Source: Candidatus Saccharimonadota bacterium (GTDB lineage Bacteria > Patescibacteriota > Patescibacteriia > 2-12-FULL-60-25). Taken from it: a DNA stretch of 32,000 nucleotides. The notes under the pieces are model-generated. The model ran no database searches. It was not told the DNA's origin and worked only from the letters and a program-made list of their open reading frames with translations. The stretch is taken from contig JALHOH010000001.1 in NCBI GenBank assembly GCA_022843095.1, positions 390,001 to 422,000 on the forward strand. Reading direction: 5' to 3'. The translations under genes and the position numbers were made by a program. Below are positions 5,101-31,484 of the stretch, one piece after another (the stretch's first letter is position 1; each line of letters opens with the position of its first letter).

Positions 5101-7230
5101 ATGCGGCTGCGAGCAAAAACAATCCTCGTCACCTGTCTCGCAGGGCTGACATTTTTTTTGCTAGTGTTGTCCGTTGAATGGTTTATTATTGCAGGAAGTT
5201 ATACCCAAATTGAAGAAGAGACGGGTCGTCGATCGGTGGAGGCGGCGGAAAACGTGTTGCGTCGTGAGCACGATACGTTGCATGTGTTGGCGCAGGACTA
5301 TGCGGGGTGGGACGATGCCTATCGATACATTCAAGACAGAAACCGCGCCTTCGAAGAAAGTAACCTGGTGGAAGAAGGGTTTTCTGGTCTACACATGTCG
5401 TTCATGGCCTTCCTAAATCAGGAGGGCAGTATCGTATTTGCAAAATGGTTTGATCGAGAGACGGGTAAATTTGCTCCGATCCCACCGGATGTGTTCAACC
5501 ATATTTCAGAACGGGATGGGTTGACCGTTCGGCGGTCTCCGGATGATGCGGTTCATGGCATCTTGGAAACAAGCGAGGGACTTCTCCTTGTTGCATCTGA
5601 GCCGATTATAAAGAGCGATAAGACAGGTCCGGTGATGGGCACGCTGATCATGGGGCGTTTGGTTGATCGGAATCTGGTGCAGTCGTTATCACGGATCTTG
5701 AATCGTGGGGTCGATATCCTTCCATTAAATGGGGGAACAGATCCTGTGTTTCTACGGGAACAAATAATGTTGGATGCATGTCCGTGTAATATTCGGGTGA
5801 ACGACGATGAGATGGTGACCTATTCGGTCTTGCGCGACGTTCATGGTGCTCCAACGCGAATTCTGCGTGTCGCCAGTCAAAGAAGCTCGTTTCAGGTAGG
5901 ACGGTTGAGCTTGGTTACCACCGCCATCGCGTTTGGGTTAGGTGTGGCGGGATACATGCTCCTCATGTTCTTGTTGCTGCGGCGTTTTGTGACCGATCCA
6001 GTAGGTCAACTCGCGAATGCAGTTCATCGGATTCGACCCGGTGCAACACGAATTGACCCCGGCACGTTTCATACGGGAACAAATGACGAGATTGCGACGC
6101 TGGGCGCGGCATTTTTTGATGCCTACACTGAGCTGAATCATCATCGCGTCGAGATCGAGCGTCAGCGTAGCCGTCTTTCGGCTATTTTGAATGCGAGTGT
6201 TGAGGGGATTGTGGTGTTGGATACCAAACGGCACATCGTTCTTGCGAATCCGGCATTTGCACGAATGATCGGATTAAAATTGCCTCAGATTCAAGGACAA
6301 AAGTTTGGTGAATTTATTTCATTTGCAGAAGAAAAAACATTAAATCCCGCAAATGAATTGCTGGATCGCGTCATGCGAACGGGATCACAGATCGCTGCTG
6401 CCGAATCGGGTCCGTTAGTGCTTTTTGGCAAAAAGCAGATCCCGCTCCCAGTCTCCGTTTCGATCGCTCCGTTGAATGGGCAGGAAGAAGCGGTGCAGGG
6501 TTGTGTGCTTTCGATCCATGATGCCACGATCGAGCGCGAGCTTGAGCGAAGGCAATCAGATTTCGTTTCCGTCGCCAGTCATCAACTTCGCTCGCCTCTC
6601 ACCTCGATAAAATGGGGGATTGAGCTGTTGCGTGATGGGTTTCCTTATCAGAAGAAGGCTTTTCATGAGCAGGTTGATGATTTAGAAAAAGTTACCAATC
6701 AGATGGTGGTACTGGTGAATGAGTTGTTGCGCGTTTCACGCATCGACGCGGGCAAGTTGTCGCCCTTAAAATTAGTGAAAACTGATGTCGTGACCTTGCT
6801 CGAGGAGGTTTTGCATGAATTAGAACCGTTTCGAAAAGAACGGAATGTACGGATAAAATTAGATATTGCAGAGAAATCTATGATGGCGAGTGTGGATCCA
6901 ACCCAATTTGCACTCGTGTTTTCGAATATCATCAATAACGCCATAAAATATTCCCCGATCGATTCGGAGGTGCAGGTTTCGCTTCACCTGACCGCACGGT
7001 TAATAAAATTTTCTGTGACGGACGCGGGTTTTGGGATTCCGAAAAAGCAACAGCATCGTATTTTTGATCGGTTGTTCCGTGCGGATAACGTGATGACAAA
7101 AGTAGAGGGAACAGGGCTTGGGCTCTATATCGCAAAAGACATCGTGACACAGCATCACGGAGAAATCTGGTTTGAATCCAAAGAAGGGAAGGGGACGACG
7201 TTTTTTGTCACGATCCCTCGGGGTCACTAG
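5101..7230 (+). CDS. Sensor histidine kinase (TM - CHASE4-like periplasmic domain - TM - HAMP - PAS - HisKA - HATPase_c)
   Basis: 709 aa. N-terminal TM helix, then a CHASE4-like signature (LAQDYAGWDDAYRYI) and a second TM (LVTTAIAFGLGVAGYMLLMFLLL). HAMP region, PAS (LSAILNASVEGIVVLD), H-box SHQLRSPLTSI, and N/G boxes (NNAIKYS, DAGFGIP, GTGLGLYI). Confidence 0.85.
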   Translation: MRLRAKTILVTCLAGLTFFLLVLSVEWFIIAGSYTQIEEETGRRSVEAAENVLRREHDTLHVLAQDYAGWDDAYRYIQDRNRAFEESNLVEEGFSGLHMSFMAFLNQEGSIVFAKWFDRETGKFAPIPPDVFNHISERDGLTVRRSPDDAVHGILETSEGLLLVASEPIIKSDKTGPVMGTLIMGRLVDRNLVQSLSRILNRGVDILPLNGGTDPVFLREQIMLDACPCNIRVNDDEMVTYSVLRDVHGAPTRILRVASQRSSFQVGRLSLVTTAIAFGLGVAGYMLLMFLLLRRFVTDPVGQLANAVHRIRPGATRIDPGTFHTGTNDEIATLGAAFFDAYTELNHHRVEIERQRSRLSAILNASVEGIVVLDTKRHIVLANPAFARMIGLKLPQIQGQKFGEFISFAEEKTLNPANELLDRVMRTGSQIAAAESGPLVLFGKKQIPLPVSVSIAPLNGQEEAVQGCVLSIHDATIERELERRQSDFVSVASHQLRSPLTSIKWGIELLRDGFPYQKKAFHEQVDDLEKVTNQMVVLVNELLRVSRIDAGKLSPLKLVKTDVVTLLEEVLHELEPFRKERNVRIKLDIAEKSMMASVDPTQFALVFSNIINNAIKYSPIDSEVQVSLHLTARLIKFSVTDAGFGIPKKQQHRIFDRLFRADNVMTKVEGTGLGLYIAKDIVTQHHGEIWFESKEGKGTTFFVTIPRGH

Positions 7231-26614: not shown

Positions 26615-27343
26615 ATGAGCGTTCTTGATCTCAAAACATTGCACGTCGATGAACTCAAGTGGGAATCCGCGGATGCGTTCACCCTTGAGTTGTATCCAGA
26701 GGAAGGGGAGACGGTCCCTGCGTTTCAGGCAGGGCAATGGTTTTATCTTCATGTGCTGAATGCGGATCGGACGTCCAAGGTCCGGGTCGCCTTGTCCGCG
26801 GCCTCTGCGCCGGAAGAAGCGTCGGGGCGGTTGGAATTTGGGGTGAAGGTATTTGGGGATAAATCCAAAGCGCTTTCCCAGCTCATCCCGGGGGATGTGG
26901 TTGGTATTCAGGGGCCGTTTGGAGTGTTTGTTCCAAAAGAACAGGCAGAGTATCAGGTGTTTTTTGCCGCCGGGATCGGAATCACGCCGTTTCGGAGCAT
27001 GATCAAGTCATGGTTTTTGCGAAAGCATCCGGTGCACGTGGTCCTGTTTTATTCCGCCAAAACGGTGGAGGAGATGGTGTATTTTGAAGAGTTTGAACAG
27101 TTGGCAAAAGATTGGCCCGCGTTTACGCCCGTTTTTACGCTGACTGCTCCGGGTGTCCCGGCAAAGTGGACGTACGAAACGGGTCGCGTGAACGCCGCGA
27201 TGGTGAACCGGTATTTACGAGATGTCTCTCGCGCCGAGTTTTACATGTGCGGACCAGAAGGGTTTATGCAGTCTGTTACGGAACTTTTGCAGGGGATGGG
27301 GGTCGATACGAAGGCAAAGTTGCATAAAGAATTGTTTGGGTAA
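26615..27343 (+). CDS. FNR-like FAD/NAD(P)-binding oxidoreductase (ferredoxin-reductase-type domain pair)
   Basis: 242 aa. Beta-barrel FAD domain, then GPFGVF, FFAAGIGITPFRSM (NAD(P)-binding GxGxxP) and a C-terminal MCGPEGFM. The usual RxYS flavin motif appears as RVALS. Confidence 0.7.
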   Translation: MSVLDLKTLHVDELKWESADAFTLELYPEEGETVPAFQAGQWFYLHVLNADRTSKVRVALSAASAPEEASGRLEFGVKVFGDKSKALSQLIPGDVVGIQGPFGVFVPKEQAEYQVFFAAGIGITPFRSMIKSWFLRKHPVHVVLFYSAKTVEEMVYFEEFEQLAKDWPAFTPVFTLTAPGVPAKWTYETGRVNAAMVNRYLRDVSRAEFYMCGPEGFMQSVTELLQGMGVDTKAKLHKELFG

Positions 27344-27369
27344 TCATTTTGCGTTACGCTAGGTGCATT

Positions 27370-27918
27370 ATGAAACGTTTTTCTTTGTTGGTCGGGGCAG
27401 GGATGTTGGTCATGATGGGTGCGGGATGCAATCCATTCCAGGCGGCGCAAGAACGGGCGCAGCAGGCAATCGGAGAAAAAATTGGCGAACAGATTATCGA
27501 GCGCGCATCCGGTGGCAAGGTGGATGTGGATGTATCTGGGGGCGGGCTGAATATTCGCGATAATGAATCGGGGAACACCGTGAATTTGGGTGGCGCAAAC
27601 GGGACGCAGATTCCATCGAACTTTCCATCGTTCGTCGGTCGGTATCCAAATGGAACGCCGGGTGCGGTTTCGGTGTCCGCGGATGGAAAAACGGGGGCGC
27701 TCTACATTGGGACATCTGATCCGATGGATCGTGTAGTGGCTTGGGTTGAATCAACGTATGCAGGCTGGACGCGTGAGTCCATGACGGATCTGGGAGGCGC
27801 GGGTCGTATCTACTCGTTCATGAAAGATGGTACGCGCGTCAGCGTGGCGGTTTCTGCTAGCCAGGATGCGAGCCAGCCAGGGGCGACCGTGATTACGAAT
27901 TTTGCTCCGGCGCAATAA
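27370..27918 (+). CDS. Putative lipoprotein, function unknown
   Basis: Start at the ATG at 27370, giving MKRFSLLVGAGMLVMMGAGC (signal peptide plus lipobox). 182 aa, Gly-rich. Confidence 0.6.
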   Translation: MKRFSLLVGAGMLVMMGAGCNPFQAAQERAQQAIGEKIGEQIIERASGGKVDVDVSGGGLNIRDNESGNTVNLGGANGTQIPSNFPSFVGRYPNGTPGAVSVSADGKTGALYIGTSDPMDRVVAWVESTYAGWTRESMTDLGGAGRIYSFMKDGTRVSVAVSASQDASQPGATVITNFAPAQ

Positions 27919-27927
27919 AGACGGGTC

Positions 27928-27956
27928 TTGCCAATATAAATCGGGTTCGGTATTCT
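27928..27956 (+). promoter_or_regulatory. Candidate sigma70-type promoter for the tRNA pair
   Basis: TTGCCA (27928-27933), a 17-nt spacer, then TATTCT (27951-27956), ~35 nt upstream of tRNA-Ile. Motif match only. Confidence 0.35.
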
Positions 27957-27958
27957 AG

Positions 27959-27982
27959 CGCCACCTCGGAAACGGGGTGGCG
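27959..27982 (+). other. GC-rich hairpin between the lipoprotein gene and tRNA-Ile
   Basis: 7-bp stem cgccacc / ggtggcg. No clean U-tract follows (tctgtatt). It could be a weak terminator for 27370-27918 or a leader/processing structure of the tRNA transcript. Confidence 0.3.
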
Positions 27983-27991
27983 TCTGTATTC

Positions 27992-28068
27992 GGGCGTGTA
28001 GCTCAGGTGGCTAGAGCGTCACACTGATAATGTGAAGGTCCCTGGTTCGAGTCCAGGCACGCCCACCA
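27992..28068 (+). tRNA. tRNA-Ile (anticodon GAT), CCA encoded
   Basis: Hand-folded cloverleaf. Acceptor GGGCGTG/CACGCCC, D arm GCTC/GAGC, anticodon stem TCACA/TGTGA with loop CTGATAA, T arm CCTGG-TTCGAGT-CCAGG, discriminator A, then CCA. Confidence 0.95.
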
Positions 28069-28069
28069 C

Positions 28070-28144
28070 GCGGGTATCGTATAGCGGCTATTATGCCACC
28101 TTGCCAAGGTGGAGATGGGGGTTCGACTCCCCCTACCCGCTCCA
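28070..28144 (+). tRNA. tRNA-Gly (anticodon GCC), CCA encoded
   Basis: Acceptor GCGGGTA/TACCCGC, anticodon stem CCACC/GGTGG with loop TTGCCAA, T arm GGGGG-TTCGACT-CCCCC, discriminator T, then CCA. The D stem is weak (3 bp plus a mismatch). Begins 1 nt after the CCA of tRNA-Ile. Confidence 0.92.
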
Positions 28145-28178
28145 ACAAGAACGCTTCTCGAAAGAGAGGCGTTTTTGT
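28122..28178 (+). repeat. Left copy of the 57-bp perfect direct repeat (attL-like): 3' 23 nt of tRNA-Gly plus 34 nt including the terminator
   Basis: Identical base for base to 31368-31424: ttcgactccccctacccgctccaacaagaacgcttctcgaaagagaggcgtttttgt. Confidence 0.95.
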
Positions 28179-28180
28179 TT
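28151..28180 (+). terminator. Rho-independent terminator of the tRNA operon (lies inside the attL repeat)
   Basis: 9-bp stem acgcttctc / gagaggcgt (one G-U pair) with a GAAA tetraloop, then TTTTTGTTT. Confidence 0.7.
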
Positions 28181-28195
28181 TGGTGATAATCACCA
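28181..28195. promoter_or_regulatory. Perfect 7-1-7 palindrome TGGTGAT-A-ATCACCA just inside the left islet boundary
   Basis: Seen directly. It starts 3 nt after the end of the left repeat. Function (recombinase or repressor site) is inferred only from position. Confidence 0.25.
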
Positions 28196-28420
28196 TATGC
28201 AATTAGGAATTCACAAAGGCATTTTTTTCAGGATGCTGACGGTAGGTTGACATTGTTTCTCGAGTCTAGATTTTCTGCCCCTTGGAAGGGCTATTTATTG
28301 ATCCTCCTTTGATTTTCTAGTGTAAACATCTTATATTTACTTATGTCTTGATTTGAAAATAAGGGTTCTATCAAGGTCCGTAAGATGGGATGAGGCCGAG
28401 AAAGCCTGAGTGAGATTTTT

Positions 28421-29215
28421 ATGAATTTTTATAAATGCATCAATCGCATTTTTATTGTAGGGCTGATTGCCCCAGTCCTGCTTTTACTCGGCTCCGGTTG
28501 TCAGACCGACCAGATACAACAGCCGATTGTTCCGATCAAAGAAGTCTTGAGTCAGCAGACAGGGGCTCAAGGAACGCAACGGGAGGTAATTTCTCTTGCA
28601 GAACAAGAAAGCTCTAAGGATCTTTTACAAAGGTATTTCAATTTGATCGATCTGAAGAAATACGAGGATGCGTATGATCTGACATCGGAAGCCTTTAGGG
28701 CCAAGCATCCTTTTGAGAAGTGGAGAGATGGTTACAAAAATACACTGAGTCACAGCGTCGATTCTGTTTCTTGTCTCGAATTGTCATGTGTAATTGATTT
28801 AGTAGCAGCTGAGGACGATGAGAATGCGCTTATCAAGCAGCGCTATTCTATTCGATACGGAGTTGTTCGAGATAAATACAGTCGGTTGGTCATTGACACG
28901 GGATCTCTGATCTCAACAAAGCTGATTGAGACGGTGCGGAGCTATGAGGCCGTGACGGAGTCGGCGCCGACAACTAACATTGAATCCCCGGCATTGGTAC
29001 CTATACCAGCGCCGACCTCAAAAGCAGTCGTTCCCAGCAATCCGGCGCCGAACGGTACATATACCAATACTTACGGAAACGAAGTACCTAGCCCTTATTA
29101 CGCACCCTCTGCACCAGCTGGTGCATCAGCTCGGTGCAGGGACGGGACCTATAGCTTTAGCCAGAGCAGAAGGGGGACGTGTTCGCATCATGGGGGTGTC
29201 GAGGAGTGGTTGTAG
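28421..29215 (+). CDS. Islet-encoded lipoprotein with C-terminal DUF3761-like domain
   Basis: 264 aa. Signal peptide plus lipobox (IAPVLLLLGSGC). The central domain has a YFNLIDLKKYEDAYDLTSEAF...W..GY pattern. After a Pro/Ser-rich linker, the C-terminus ARCRDGTYSFSQSRRGTCSHHGGVEEWL matches my recollection of DUF3761. Confidence 0.7.
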   Translation: MNFYKCINRIFIVGLIAPVLLLLGSGCQTDQIQQPIVPIKEVLSQQTGAQGTQREVISLAEQESSKDLLQRYFNLIDLKKYEDAYDLTSEAFRAKHPFEKWRDGYKNTLSHSVDSVSCLELSCVIDLVAAEDDENALIKQRYSIRYGVVRDKYSRLVIDTGSLISTKLIETVRSYEAVTESAPTTNIESPALVPIPAPTSKAVVPSNPAPNGTYTNTYGNEVPSPYYAPSAPAGASARCRDGTYSFSQSRRGTCSHHGGVEEWL

Positions 29216-29453
29216 CGGATATGGGACCTGAGCTGATAATTATAGATAATGTATGGATGTAGATCGCACAGATGCGTAGAGATCGGTAAGCAGATCTGAT
29301 TCAGGGTTTCAAAAACTAGCCAATTTCGGCACAATCGCCAACATATTTTTGATAAGCTTCTATTTTTATTTTTTTCTCTCAGCTGTCCTCGCTGCTCTAC
29401 TAGATAAAGAGCGACATTTTTTAACTCCAGGGTTGTAGGTTTAAGGAAAGCTA

Positions 29454-31121
29454 ATGTTACCCATCAGAGCAAGTCATGATATTAACTTTTTGAATACAAA
29501 GGCGGCCCCGGGAGGCGGTCCTATCTTTGAAAATGAACTTATATCGGTTTTTAAGCGCCGTAGACTGGATGCCACCCTAGTCAGCTTAGGACGAGGTTCG
29601 ATAGGTGTAATTAAGCGTTCCGGCGCAGATCCAGATGTTCCGCATGGAATAGCACGAGATTCTGGAACGGGATTGATGTTTCCTGTTTGGTGTATGGCCT
29701 ACATGGCCAACATAGCGCTAATCTCTGGATCTAATGATTGGAAGGATGCACGGTTCACCGATGGGGAGCTATTGCTTTTAACAAATAACATTTATCCAGC
29801 GCTCGCTGAACCGATCATGCGAGACCATGATCAAATAGAAAGCGCCGAATTCCTCATCCAAAAGGATTTAGAGCAGTTTTCATGGCAACATTTTCCCGGA
29901 TATGAAATCGCGAGATCTTTAGTGCTGTACAATGAATTATTACCCTCAGTCTTTAGGGCTCGGCGCGATATCTTCAAGCACGATCCTGAAGAAGCCCTAG
30001 TGTCTGCAACTGGCCTAGGCATTAGAGAGCATTTGGTTATGGGTATGTGTGTCTGTGCACAAGCTTTAAGCAACGGAGCGATCATTCGACCGAGCCAATT
30101 ATTCAACGCGACCATCCCTTCATTGATGCCGCTCCTCACTCAAGAAAAAGTATTTGCGTATTTACATACGATATCGGGAGAATACGAAGAACTAAGAGAA
30201 ATAGATCAAGCAAGAAATGGAGTGGCCGACCCCTGGTATACAAAGCATCGGTTCAACCCTCTACGCGAGAAGCCATTGGCAAGATCAAAGCGCCTTTCAG
30301 AGGAAGCGCGTGAGGATGTCTACATCGCTCCTAGTTTTCAAATTTTAATGAACCGCGTACTCGCCGGTTTCTACTGGACAATCCATAGCATCCTTGAGAA
30401 AGACGGAAAGAAACACGGCCACTTCAGAGATGGGTTTGGTTACGTTTTTGAGGAGTATGTTGGTGGACTCCTAAAACGGATTAATCCGGACACTTTTTCT
30501 ATCTCTCAAGACAACTATCAATGTTTTGATTGGATAGTGCCTGCGGATGACGGTTTTGTTTTATTGGAAGCAAAAGCACTGCAATTCAATTTGACGAGTA
30601 AGACGTATCCTCAGAGGGAGCAGATAGTCAAAGAAGAGGTGATTCCAAAAATTATTGAAGCTCTTGTGCAGTGTAATAGAACGCTGGATGACATTGAGCT
30701 AAAACCTTCTTTAGCTATGCTGCGAGGGAAGTCATTAGTTCCCTGTGTGGTGGTTTGGGATGTGCCCTTGGTGGAGCAGGGCGGAATGGACAGATTCATC
30801 AAAAAAACACTGGATGATCTTACGCAGGGGGAGGTGTCAGATTCAGTAAAAAAACTATTGTCTCGAAAAAAGATTCAGTCGTACGAAATTGAAGCGCTCC
30901 GTAAGGATCGACCAGCTCTTATTTCAATTCGAGAGTTAGAGCTGCTTGAGGGTGTTGGGGGTCGGATATCGTTACGCAGTTTTCTTGAAAAGAAGAAGAT
31001 CTCGCAGTCAGGTGGACGTACGATACTAGCCACAGAAGTGCCAGACCTCCCTTTGACCTGTCCATATCTAGACAAAAAATACGAACAATACTGGAAAGAC
31101 GTAAGTGAAGGTGAATGGTAG
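29454..31121 (+). CDS. Islet-encoded 555-aa hypothetical protein with a PD-(D/E)xK nuclease-like motif set in its C-terminal half
   Basis: The only long ORF here. AAGGA lies 6 nt upstream of the ATG. Residues ~327-380 read GFGYVFEEYVGGLLKRI...CFDWIVPADDGFVLLEAKALQF: a helix with conserved E, a strand ending in D, and ExK 13 residues later. No Walker A, and no tyrosine- or serine-recombinase motifs seen. Confidence 0.7.
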   Translation: MLPIRASHDINFLNTKAAPGGGPIFENELISVFKRRRLDATLVSLGRGSIGVIKRSGADPDVPHGIARDSGTGLMFPVWCMAYMANIALISGSNDWKDARFTDGELLLLTNNIYPALAEPIMRDHDQIESAEFLIQKDLEQFSWQHFPGYEIARSLVLYNELLPSVFRARRDIFKHDPEEALVSATGLGIREHLVMGMCVCAQALSNGAIIRPSQLFNATIPSLMPLLTQEKVFAYLHTISGEYEELREIDQARNGVADPWYTKHRFNPLREKPLARSKRLSEEAREDVYIAPSFQILMNRVLAGFYWTIHSILEKDGKKHGHFRDGFGYVFEEYVGGLLKRINPDTFSISQDNYQCFDWIVPADDGFVLLEAKALQFNLTSKTYPQREQIVKEEVIPKIIEALVQCNRTLDDIELKPSLAMLRGKSLVPCVVVWDVPLVEQGGMDRFIKKTLDDLTQGEVSDSVKKLLSRKKIQSYEIEALRKDRPALISIRELELLEGVGGRISLRSFLEKKKISQSGGRTILATEVPDLPLTCPYLDKKYEQYWKDVSEGEW

Positions 31122-31367
31122 CTCCGACCTATGAAAAAAACACGTGCTCGGATTAGATAGACGCAAATACTGGACAAGACGTCCGGTATTTCTCTTACCA
31201 ACTTACCCTCTCTCTATGGTTCACGCCCGGCTGACATTAAGGAGTTAGTTTATGCAATACCATGTTTACTTGTGATGAAGATTAATGGTTATTAATCCAT
31301 TGCAGTCATTGAACAATTTTATCCTTTAGCATTCATTAGCCGTCTCCGTTATTACCTTGAATAAGAA

Positions 31368-31424
31368 TTCGACTCCCCCTACCCGCTCCAACAAGAACGC
31401 TTCTCGAAAGAGAGGCGTTTTTGT
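31368..31424 (+). repeat. Right copy of the 57-bp direct repeat (attR-like): tRNA-Gly 3' fragment plus a second copy of the terminator
   Basis: Identical to 28122-28178. The sequence upstream (gaataagaa) does not continue the tRNA, so this is a 23-nt tRNA fragment and not a second tRNA gene. The hairpin plus T-run at 31397-31424 should terminate islet transcripts. Confidence 0.95.
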
Positions 31425-31484
31425 ATCCCGTTTCCTCCCTTGACGTTTTGCAAAAGATCAGGAACGGTGGCGGCGGAGGTTCGC

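What the first reader, a model, noticed from the sequence alone, without database searches (positions are those of the whole stretch)
28122..31424. About 3.2-kb AT-richer islet at the 3' end of tRNA-Gly(GCC), bounded by a perfect 57-bp direct repeat, with no integrase
28122-28178 and 31368-31424 are identical over 57 nt. The repeat comprises the last 23 nt of tRNA-Gly (T-loop through CCA) plus 34 nt downstream, including the whole terminator hairpin.

The 3189 bp between the copies differs from the flanks in three ways:
- My hand counts of single 60-nt lines give roughly 37-50% GC inside versus about 47-60% outside.
- Codons are much more A/T-ending.
- Spacers are about 240 bp, versus 3-60 bp in the flanks.

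This is the classical attL/attR footprint of site-specific integration into a tRNA gene. However, neither islet ORF resembles a tyrosine or serine recombinase, and there is no excisionase-sized ORF.

Four explanations are possible:
- a satellite-like element mobilised in trans by an integrase encoded elsewhere
- a decayed island that lost its integrase
- mobility by an unrecognised enzyme
- a non-mobile duplication
Basis: partly seen in the sequence, partly recalled or inferred. Interest (0 to 1): 0.8.

Follow-up and report, generated by a model that had tools for sequence, protein, structure and literature searches.

The report
Integrase-less anti-phage islet at tRNA-Gly
A 3.2-kb piece of foreign DNA carrying a likely anti-phage nuclease sits in the end of a glycine tRNA gene with intact insertion scars but no enzyme to move itself; a sister strain lacks it exactly at the scars, so it is a real but fairly ordinary "stranded" mobile islet.

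Summary
tRNA-Gly(GCC) lies at 28070-28144. A perfect 57-nt direct repeat (28122-28178 and 31368-31424) covers the last 23 nt of the tRNA plus its 34-nt terminator hairpin. The 3,189 bp between the copies are compositionally foreign: GC 0.443 against a background minimum of 0.509, and GC3 0.43-0.48 against 0.57-0.71.

I found the empty site. A public contig from a strain about 99.5% identical reads tRNA-Gly, then one 57-mer, then straight into the right flank.

No recombinase domain, remnant or excisionase-sized ORF exists in the islet, and none was detected in any of the 27 larger window ORFs scanned. The cargo is:
- a lipoprotein-like DUF3761 protein;
- a 555-aa PD-(D/E)xK protein distantly homologous to the GAPS1/GapS1 anti-phage nuclease. 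It scores 66 bits against a curated cutoff of 320, so it belongs to a sister clade and is not a GapS1 member.

Relatives of this cargo gene sit in defence islands that do carry recombinases.

Best reading: this is an att-flanked, integrase-less islet of the CIME (cis-mobilizable element) type. It was inserted by a tRNA T-loop-class site-specific recombinase. It can now move only through a recombinase supplied in trans or in cis, or be lost by recombination between the repeats. It is a new member of a known kind, of modest interest.

The parts
27992..28068 (+). tRNA-Ile(GAT), first gene of the two-tRNA unit (host context)
   Evidence: ARAGORN; Rfam tRNA 71.8 bits
28070..28144 (+). tRNA-Gly(GCC), the intact regenerated integration target; identical in the empty-site strain
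   Evidence: ARAGORN; Rfam 60.5 bits; same sequence in L015
28122..28178 (+). attL copy of the 57-nt direct repeat: tRNA-Gly T-loop to CCA (28122-28144) plus the terminator hairpin (28145-28178)
   Evidence: the repeat finder D1, 100%; hairpin -23.3 kcal/mol, z -7.1
28179..28420 (.). Left non-coding arm of the islet (242 bp, GC 0.376), with a promoter-like site at 28309-28337 upstream of ORF1
   Evidence: no credible ORF; no Rfam family
28421..29215 (+). ORF1, 264 aa: hydrophobic N-terminus ending in ...LLGSGC (lipoprotein-like), unique middle region, C-terminal DUF3761 domain
   Evidence: Pfam PF12587, 5.9e-23, above cutoff. Of 3,032 homologues, nearly all match only the DUF3761 domain; best longer matches are 32-35% over 64-69% of the query and 36% over 97%
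29216..29453 (.). Internal spacer (238 bp, GC 0.391)
29454..31121 (+). ORF2, 555 aa: GapS1-like PD-(D/E)xK protein, the predicted anti-phage effector. Conserved E333/E334, D359, E372-A-K374, Q406
   Evidence: NCBIfam NF047931, E 2.6e-18, 66 bits, cutoff 320; family alignment A2; AF2 model pLDDT 73.6; weak Foldseek hits are PD-(D/E)xK nucleases, with no recombinase among the 50 listed; superfamily of 2,609 cluster representatives, 9 of 10 sampled match only GapS1
31122..31367 (.). Right non-coding arm of the islet (246 bp, GC 0.390)
31368..31424 (+). attR copy of the 57-nt repeat: displaced 3' tDNA fragment (31368-31390) plus the original chromosomal terminator (31391-31424)
   Evidence: the repeat finder D1; hairpin -22.8 kcal/mol; continuous with the right flank in empty-site contig L015
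31485..31955 (+). Host gene immediately right of the islet (unknown function, GC 0.588). It marks the return to host composition
   Evidence: 98%-identical partial homologue P0007 on L013

Best explanation
The islet is an integrase-less, att-flanked integrative element of the CIME (cis-mobilizable element) type.

How it arose (inferred): a circular element recombined site-specifically with the tRNA-Gly(GCC) gene at or near the T-loop. Its attP carried a copy of the tRNA-Gly T-loop-to-CCA segment plus the locus's own terminator. The element-borne copy regenerated the tRNA and its terminator (attL). The original 3' fragment and terminator were displaced 3.2 kb downstream (attR). The catalyst was most likely a tyrosine integrase of the T-stem/T-loop crossover class.

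What it is now (shown): the element has no recombinase of any kind, only cargo. The cargo is a stand-alone GapS1-like PD-(D/E)xK nuclease, predicted to act as a phage-triggered abortive or dormancy defence like GAPS1, and an unrelated DUF3761 lipoprotein-like protein.

How it can move (inferred): both att sites are perfect, so the islet remains a substrate for a cognate recombinase. That recombinase could be supplied in trans by a related full-length element, or in cis after tandem accretion. The islet can also be lost by RecA recombination between the 57-bp repeats, or spread with its flanks by homologous recombination.

Shown: the anatomy, foreign composition, lack of a recombinase, cargo homology, and a precise filled/empty polymorphism within one species. 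Inferred: the recombinase class, the former presence of an integrase, and the defence function.
For: - Signature: an intact tDNA plus a displaced 3' fragment in the same orientation downstream. This is the defining signature of tDNA-integrated islands. The repeat starts at the T-loop, one of the two common crossover classes (Islander paper PMC4383910).
- Empty site: L015, from a strain 99.55% identical, has one 57-mer joined to the right flank.
- Foreign composition: GC, dinucleotide, tetranucleotide and GC3 values all lie outside the window's background range.
- No recombinase: none in ORF1, ORF2, eight small or antisense ORFs, or the other window genes scanned. The ORF2 model gives no recombinase fold.
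- ORF2 is homologous to GapS1 with an intact PD-(D/E)xK triad. Its D-to-K spacing of 15 residues matches GAPS1 D313/K328 (GAPS1 paper).
- ORF2 relatives are island cargo next to recombinases: L001 and L019 (78% identical, directly after a tRNA, with a large serine recombinase) and L006 (MmeI RM, DUF3644, a related serine recombinase).
- CIMEs are defined as elements that lost their integration and transfer genes but kept attL and attR (PMC5704250). Degenerated elements and partial tRNAs are also reported in tRNA-adjacent islands.
Against: - No integrase pseudogene debris exists, and the two arms share no repeated arm-type motifs. Past possession of an integrase is therefore undocumented.
- No cognate integrase or attP was found. 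The 30-nt att probe is absent from the JGI metagenome and IMG/VR collections.
- The empty-site contig extends only 15 nt beyond the repeat. It cannot tell excision from RecA deletion or from never having been occupied.
- The nearest cargo relatives travel with serine recombinases, not tyrosine recombinases.
- The defence function rests on distant homology, 66 bits against a 320-bit cutoff.
Confidence: 0.68

Rival explanations
1. The islet is a purpose-built hitchhiker, or satellite-like att cassette. It never encoded an integrase. It persists because it carries a perfect copy of the att site used by a helper element's tRNA-Gly-specific integrase, which integrates and excises it in trans. This differs from the best explanation in history, and in implying ongoing, selected mobility.
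For: - The architecture is very compact, with no pseudogene debris.
- The repeat is a perfect 57/57 match and includes the host-lineage-specific terminator. This suggests the element cycles within this lineage.
- A filled/empty polymorphism exists among strains about 99.5% identical.
Against: - No helper element, attP circle or second copy was found.
- No arm-type repeats or excisionase-type gene were found.
- Only one instance of the islet is known. ORF1 and ORF2 as exact proteins occur only in this genome.
Confidence: 0.2
2. The islet is the remnant of a large-serine-recombinase element. It would be like the L001/L019/L006 islands that carry ORF2 homologues, and analogous to ccr-less pseudo-SCC elements (own knowledge). 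It would not be a tyrosine-integrase element.
For: - The 78%-identical homologue lies directly after a tRNA 3' end in an island with a 447-aa large serine recombinase.
- A recombinase 68% identical accompanies a distant homologue in L006.
Against: - Serine integrases exchange at a 2-bp core and do not normally generate a 57-bp identity block that regenerates a tRNA 3' end (established knowledge).
- Only tyrosine recombinases were known to target tDNAs as of the Islander paper.
- The conserved motif next to those recombinase genes (CCNGAGYGYCTCAA) has no meaningful match at the islet ends.
- Homology between the window and L001 is confined to the ORF2 coding region.
Confidence: 0.06
3. One of the islet's own proteins is an unrecognised mobility enzyme, for example the PD-(D/E)xK protein ORF2 acting as a site-specific nuclease or recombinase.
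For: ORF2 has an intact nuclease active site. Its N-terminal two-thirds has no assigned function.
Against: - The only NCBIfam family reaching E<=1e-3 for ORF2, and the best for 9 of 10 sampled relatives, is the anti-phage GapS1 model.
- Homologues in L003-L007 have no nearby tRNA, and the L001 and L006 islands have their own recombinases.
- No recombinase fold appears among the 50 listed fold hits.
- ORF1 is an exported DUF3761 protein.
Confidence: 0.03
4. The structure is an assembly or binning artefact, or a non-mobile local duplication.
For: - The host genome appears to be an uncultured, sparsely sampled lineage: every housekeeping protein checked is a singleton cluster.
- Reads could not be inspected.
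Against: - The islet lies inside a 683-kb contig.
- Both junctions have the exact geometry expected of site-specific integration. The tRNA is regenerated and the displaced fragment is joined to the true right flank, as verified independently by L015.
- A local duplication would not bring in 3.2 kb of compositionally foreign DNA.
Confidence: 0.03

Closest known systems
CIMEs (cis-mobilizable elements) of Streptococcus and other Firmicutes, e.g. at tRNA-Lys and fda
   Same: Both are flanked by intact attL and attR derived from site-specific integration at the 3' end of a gene, with no integrase or transfer genes. Both can be mobilised only with a recombinase from another element (definition in PMC5704250).
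   Different: - Described CIMEs are recognised as decayed ICEs or IMEs and often sit in tandem with a functional element. Here there is no tandem partner, no decay debris, and no identified cognate ICE, IME or integrase.
- The host lineage is unknown and sparsely sampled.
- The cargo is a defence gene.
tDNA-integrated genomic islands as defined by Islander (tyrosine-integrase islands in tRNA/tmRNA genes)
   Same: Both show a regenerated tDNA plus a displaced 3' fragment in the same orientation, a T-stem/T-loop-region crossover class, and foreign composition.
   Different: - The islet lacks the integrase gene that Islander requires.
- At 3.2 kb it is very small.
- The identity block (57 bp) extends 34 nt beyond the tRNA through the terminator.
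GAPS1 / GapS1 single-protein anti-phage system (Vibrio GMT islands, Klebsiella, E. coli)
   Same: Both are single large proteins with a C-terminal-half PD-(D/E)xK site and the same D-to-K spacing of 15 residues. Both are carried as mobile-island cargo. The homology is significant (E 2.6e-18).
   Different: - ORF2 scores 66 bits against a 320-bit family cutoff.
- It is about 100 aa longer than the 455-position model.
- It belongs to a separate, large sister clade of 2,609 cluster representatives.
- It is carried by a tRNA att islet, not a GMT element.
- Its function is untested.
Pseudo-SCC / SCC-like cassettes lacking ccr genes in staphylococci (own knowledge)
   Same: Both are small cargo cassettes bounded by direct-repeat att sites at the 3' end of a conserved gene, with no recombinase of their own, and are movable by recombinases of related elements.
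   Different: SCC elements use large serine recombinases and roughly 15-20-bp repeats at rlmH. Here the target is a tRNA gene with a 57-bp repeat, which points to a tyrosine recombinase.
Degenerate elements and partial tRNAs in tRNA-adjacent islands of Prochlorococcus (tycheposon paper)
   Same: Both involve partial tRNA copies marking earlier integrations next to a tRNA gene, with some elements degraded.
   Different: Those remnants lie in large composite islands with fragmented integrases. This is a single, clean, two-gene unit with perfect att sites.

Membership tests
tDNA-integrated genomic island (Islander definition) | Intact (regenerated) tRNA gene at one end | tested here: met
   tRNA-Gly(GCC) 28070-28144, found by ARAGORN and Rfam; identical in empty-site contig L015
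tDNA-integrated genomic island (Islander definition) | Displaced fragment of the same tDNA, same orientation, on the correct side (3' fragment downstream) | tested here: met
   23-nt 3' fragment at 31368-31390 within the 57-nt repeat
tDNA-integrated genomic island (Islander definition) | Integrase (tyrosine recombinase) gene inside the island | tested here: not met
   No Pfam, NCBIfam, PHROG or PADLOC recombinase hit in ORF1 or ORF2, and no Pfam hit in eight small or antisense ORFs; no recombinase fold
tDNA-integrated genomic island (Islander definition) | Unoccupied attB in related genomes | tested here: met
   L015: tRNA-Gly plus one 57-mer plus the right flank, 14/15 matches
CIME (cis-mobilizable element) | Retains both attL and attR | tested here: met
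   Perfect 57/57 repeat at both ends
CIME (cis-mobilizable element) | Lacks integration and transfer genes | tested here: met
CIME (cis-mobilizable element) | Derived by decay of an ICE, IME or other integrase-bearing element | tested here: inconclusive
   No remnants or related full-length element found. Cargo homologues do ride recombinase-bearing islands
CIME (cis-mobilizable element) | Excision or transfer when a cognate element supplies the recombinase (accretion-mobilisation) | not testable with these tools
   Needs reads, PCR or genetics
GapS1 family (NCBIfam NF047931) | Whole-protein score at or above the curated cutoff (320 bits) | tested here: not met
   66.1 bits, E 2.6e-18; sampled relatives score 39-107 bits
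GapS1 family (NCBIfam NF047931) | PD-(D/E)xK active site required for defence (D313 and K328 in GAPS1) | tested here: met
   D359 and K374 are invariant, with E/D at 372, and the spacing is the same 15 residues (paper)
GapS1 family (NCBIfam NF047931) | Protects against phage; triggered by capsid protein | not testable with these tools
   Experimental
DUF3761 (Pfam PF12587) | Score above the gathering threshold | tested here: met
   ORF1 residues 191-263, 81.6 bits against 29
Large serine recombinase element (L001/L006 type) | Resolvase, Recombinase and Zn_ribbon_recom domain gene, with the conserved CCNGAGYGYCTCAA motif at the element end | tested here: not met
   No such gene. The motif is absent from the islet ends, with only 2-mismatch, chance-level hits

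The most novel reading that the evidence does not exclude
The islet may be an actively cycling, obligately trans-mobilised 'defence cassette'. It would be a minimal two-gene unit whose only mobility determinant is a perfect 57-bp att, including the host lineage's own tRNA-Gly terminator. It would be moved between strains by a tRNA-Gly-specific integrase encoded on a separate helper element. This could be occurring in a very sparsely sampled, possibly small-genome lineage where few mobile elements are known. Such an element would be a tRNA-att analogue of integron cassettes or ccr-less SCC cassettes for spreading anti-phage genes.
Probability: 0.18. Interest if true: 0.55.

Novelty: new member of a known kind. 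Interest (0 to 1): 0.3.

Why it matters
This is a clean natural example of how anti-phage genes can sit in a genome as mobilisable units without paying for their own recombinase. The unit has two genes, perfect att sites, and a documented filled/empty pair within one species.

It would be skipped by island finders that require an integrase, such as Islander. It therefore illustrates a class of defence cargo that such tools under-count.

It also flags a large, uncurated sister clade of the GapS1 anti-phage nuclease: 2,609 cluster representatives, none of those sampled reaching the curated cutoff. None of this overturns current understanding.

Tried and rejected
- **Close relatives in species-representative genomes:** a search using the flanking oxidoreductase found only Bacteroidota hits at about 30% identity. 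It gave no synteny and no host identification.
- **att probe:** an exact 30-nt probe from the repeat gave zero hits in JGI metagenomes and in IMG/VR.
- **Islet DNA against phage and plasmid records (blastn):** no match.
- **ORF2 against plasmids (tblastn):** only weak hits of 22-32% to hypothetical proteins.
- **ORF2 family against viral contigs:** none.
- **ORF2 family against metagenome contigs:** only L019, a 91% copy of L001.
- **PDB sequence search with ORF2:** nothing.
- **Arm-type integrase binding repeats shared by the islet ends:** only chance A/T-run k-mers.
- **A third, degenerate att copy indicating tandem accretion:** none.
- **Host taxonomy through protein cluster names:** all clusters are unnamed singletons. 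The only hints are Patescibacteria and Magasanikbacteria names on ORF1 relatives, and these concern the cargo, not the host.
- **Contexts of the ORF1 relatives P0009 and P0010:** ordinary chromosomal neighbourhoods (TrmB, radical SAM), with no island or integrase.
- **Contig ends:** L014 ends 20 nt into the repeat and L013 starts 143 nt right of attR. Neither informs on occupancy.
considered and rejected on the GapS1 homology and on the homologues' contexts.

Full report
**Observation.** The window holds two adjacent tRNA genes on the + strand: tRNA-Ile(GAT) at 27992-28068 and tRNA-Gly(GCC) at 28070-28144 (Rfam 71.8 and 60.5 bits).

A single 57-nt direct repeat at 100% identity lies at 28122-28178 and 31368-31424. 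It consists of the last 23 nt of tRNA-Gly, from the first base of the T-loop through CCA, plus the next 34 nt. The 23-nt tRNA part occurs exactly twice in the 32 kb even with three mismatches allowed, with zero expected by chance. Local alignment finds no degenerate third copy inside the islet.

The 34-nt part folds into a 15-16-bp hairpin followed by a U-tract, at about -23 kcal/mol with z about -7.

**Composition.** The 3,189 bp between the copies have GC 0.443. In 250 same-size windows from the rest of the sequence, GC ranges from 0.509 to 0.579 (mean 0.548, sd 0.015). The dinucleotide (Karlin) distance is 161 against a background mean of 45 and maximum of 79. The tetranucleotide distance is 0.0377 against a background maximum of 0.0175.

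GC3 of the two islet ORFs is 0.48 and 0.43, against 0.57-0.71 for eight of the nine other genes measured; the histidine kinase at 5101-7230 is the exception at 0.51. The three non-coding stretches are 242, 238 and 246 bp with GC 0.38-0.39.

**Empty site.** The upstream 182-aa protein (27370-27918) occurs with an identical sequence on two short public contigs.
- L015 (Logan SRR31864886, 1,137 bp) aligns to window 27057-28178 at 99.55%. Its last 72 bases also align to 31368-31439.
- Read directly, L015 runs tRNA-Ile, tRNA-Gly, one copy of the 57-mer, then ATCTCGTTTCCTCCC. The window's sequence right of attR is ATCCCGTTTCCTCCC.

This is the unoccupied attB in a strain of the same species, although only 15 nt of right flank are covered. 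L014 ends 20 nt into the repeat and L013 begins 143 nt to the right of attR, so neither is informative.

The exact ORF1 and ORF2 proteins are known only from the source genome, which is an NCBI contig of 683,555 bp.

**No recombinase.**
- ORF1 and ORF2 give no recombinase hit in Pfam, NCBIfam, PHROGs or PADLOC.
- Eight small, alternative-frame or antisense ORFs between 28291 and 31248, scanned at E up to 10, give no Pfam family at all.
- No small ORF in the spacers resembles an excisionase, and Rfam finds nothing but the tRNAs.
- The other window ORFs scanned are mostly housekeeping genes: ClpB, MetRS, PGI, class II aldolase, PfkB-family kinase, PPase, a SNF2-family helicase, TatD, PolX and others. 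None has a recombinase domain, and five have no Pfam match at all.
- The two arms share no repeated motifs beyond chance A/T runs.

**Cargo: ORF1.** ORF1 (264 aa) has a hydrophobic N-terminus ending in LLGSGC, which looks like a lipoprotein signal, and a C-terminal DUF3761 domain (81.6 bits against a cutoff of 29). Its 3,032 homologues mostly share only that domain.

**Cargo: ORF2.** ORF2 (555 aa) has no Pfam or PADLOC hit, but matches NCBIfam NF047931 'antiphage_GapS1' at E 2.6e-18. The score is 66 bits, far below the 320-bit cutoff.

The word-indexed search found only six relatives. The exhaustive profile search found much more: 2,609 cluster representatives at 50% identity, 219 of them at E<=1e-30, and most of the top-scoring ones listed are full length. 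Nine of ten sampled members hit only the GapS1 model, at 39-107 bits. ORF2 therefore belongs to a large sister clade of GapS1 and not to the curated family.

The family alignment conserves E333/E334, D359, (E/D)372-A373-K374 and Q406. This is a PD-(D/E)xK signature. Its D-to-K spacing of 15 residues equals that of the residues D313 and K328, which are essential for GAPS1 defence (bioRxiv 10.1101/2023.03.28.534373).

An AlphaFold model (pLDDT 73.6, pTM 0.77) gives only weak Foldseek matches. These are dominated by PD-(D/E)xK nucleases: Upx, Nt.BspD6I, HindIII, HincII and Hjc. No tyrosine- or serine-recombinase fold is among the 50 hits listed. Upx is itself an anti-phage PD-(D/E)xK nuclease (PMC13099982).

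**Contexts of ORF2 relatives.**
- The 78%-identical homologue (L001 and L002, and a 91% DNA copy in L019) lies directly after a tRNA 3' end. It is followed by an Mrr-type nuclease, a 447-aa large serine recombinase, an HTH_17 gene and an HsdM-like gene.
- A 27% homologue (L006) sits with an MmeI-type RM enzyme, a DUF3644 protein and a serine recombinase 68% identical to that of L001.
- Homology between the window and L001 is confined to the ORF2 coding region.

The gene is therefore exchangeable defence-island cargo. ORF1 is not a conserved partner.

**Mechanism.** The geometry is the textbook outcome of site-specific integration into a tDNA: a regenerated tRNA, with a displaced 3' fragment in the same orientation downstream, marks the island ends. 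The T-stem region is one of the two common crossover classes. Only tyrosine recombinases were known to target tDNAs at the time of that paper (Islander, PMC4383910).

The identity block here starts at the first T-loop base and runs through the terminator. The element's attP must therefore have carried this lineage's own tRNA-Gly tail, which suggests the element family circulates within this lineage (inference).

[quoted passage not shown] Comparable degenerated elements and stray partial tRNAs are reported next to island tRNAs in Prochlorococcus.

I cannot tell whether an integrase was lost or never present, because there is no debris. Nor can I tell whether the empty allele arose by excision, by RecA deletion between the repeats, or by never having been occupied.

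**Rivals.**
- A serine-recombinase origin is suggested only by the company ORF2's relatives keep. It fits the 57-bp identity block poorly, and the motif conserved beside those recombinase genes is not at the islet ends.
- A mobility role for ORF2 is unsupported.
- An assembly artefact or plain duplication is hard to reconcile with the exact junction geometry, the independent empty-site contig and the foreign composition. Reads could not be checked.

**Verdict.** What is there is an integrase-less, att-flanked mini-island carrying a GapS1-like defence nuclease. It is a new member of a known kind (CIME or stranded tDNA islet), useful as a clean example but not surprising to specialists.

The host remains unidentified. 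The only hints are Patescibacteria names on ORF1 relatives and singleton housekeeping clusters.

Noticed in passing
L001 1-5215; L019 1-3797; L006 8469-10081: A family of defence islands is defined by a 447-aa large serine recombinase (68% identical between L001 and L006) carrying different cargo. In L001 and L019 the element abuts a tRNA 3' end: the acceptor-stem sequence differs between the two contigs, while the sequence from CCA onward is shared. A 14-nt repeat CC(C/A)GAGTGCCTCAA (L001 203-216 and 4453-4466) brackets GapS1-like, Mrr-like and recombinase genes (about 4.2 kb). L006 has GTCCAGAGCGTCTCAA in the same position upstream of its recombinase gene. This could be a serine-recombinase att core next to a tDNA, which would be unusual, but repeats of this length are expected by chance at about 2 per 5 kb (my own estimate).
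   Followed up: partly
L019 64-1842: The GapS1-like gene of this 91% copy of the L001 element is split into two ORFs (64-1149 and 1258-1842). This is either a frameshift pseudogene or a sequencing error in a 3x-coverage contig.
   Followed up: no
window 28421-29215 (ORF1), especially 28990-29215: The C-terminal DUF3761 domain (about 55 aa) is 91-95% identical to proteins in other genomes (P0025 on a 1.1-Mb contig, and P0037), while the rest of ORF1 finds at best 32-36% identity. GC rises locally to 0.53 at 28800-29199. This suggests domain shuffling or a recent recombination into ORF1.
   Followed up: no
window 27370-27918 and 28421-29215: The host protein just upstream of the tRNAs and the islet ORF1 both have lipoprotein-like N-termini with the same atypical G-[AS]-G-C box (MMGAGC and LLGSGC). 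This hints that the islet's donor used the same export conventions as the host.
   Followed up: no
window 1-32000 (all housekeeping proteins): ClpB, MetRS, a SNF2-family helicase, aldolase, a PfkB-family kinase and others are each singleton clusters at 90% identity among about 15 billion proteins, known only from one NCBI contig of 683,555 bp plus a few short Logan contigs. The host lineage is very sparsely sampled and was not found among GTDB species representatives.
   Followed up: partly
window 5101-7230: The CHASE4/PAS histidine kinase gene has lower GC (0.49, GC3 0.51) than its neighbours (GC3 about 0.6). This is a second, milder compositional outlier in the window.
   Followed up: no
L014 end (= window 28141); L013 start (= window 31567): In two other samples the contigs of this species break inside or near the att region. 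This could reflect strain heterogeneity or the repeat at this site, but the break points do not match a simple k-mer repeat model.
   Followed up: no
window 27992-28144: tRNA-Ile(GAT) and tRNA-Gly(GCC) are separated by a single base and share one promoter-like site (27928-27956) and one terminator. The island's att therefore also supplies the terminator of a dicistronic tRNA unit.
   Followed up: no
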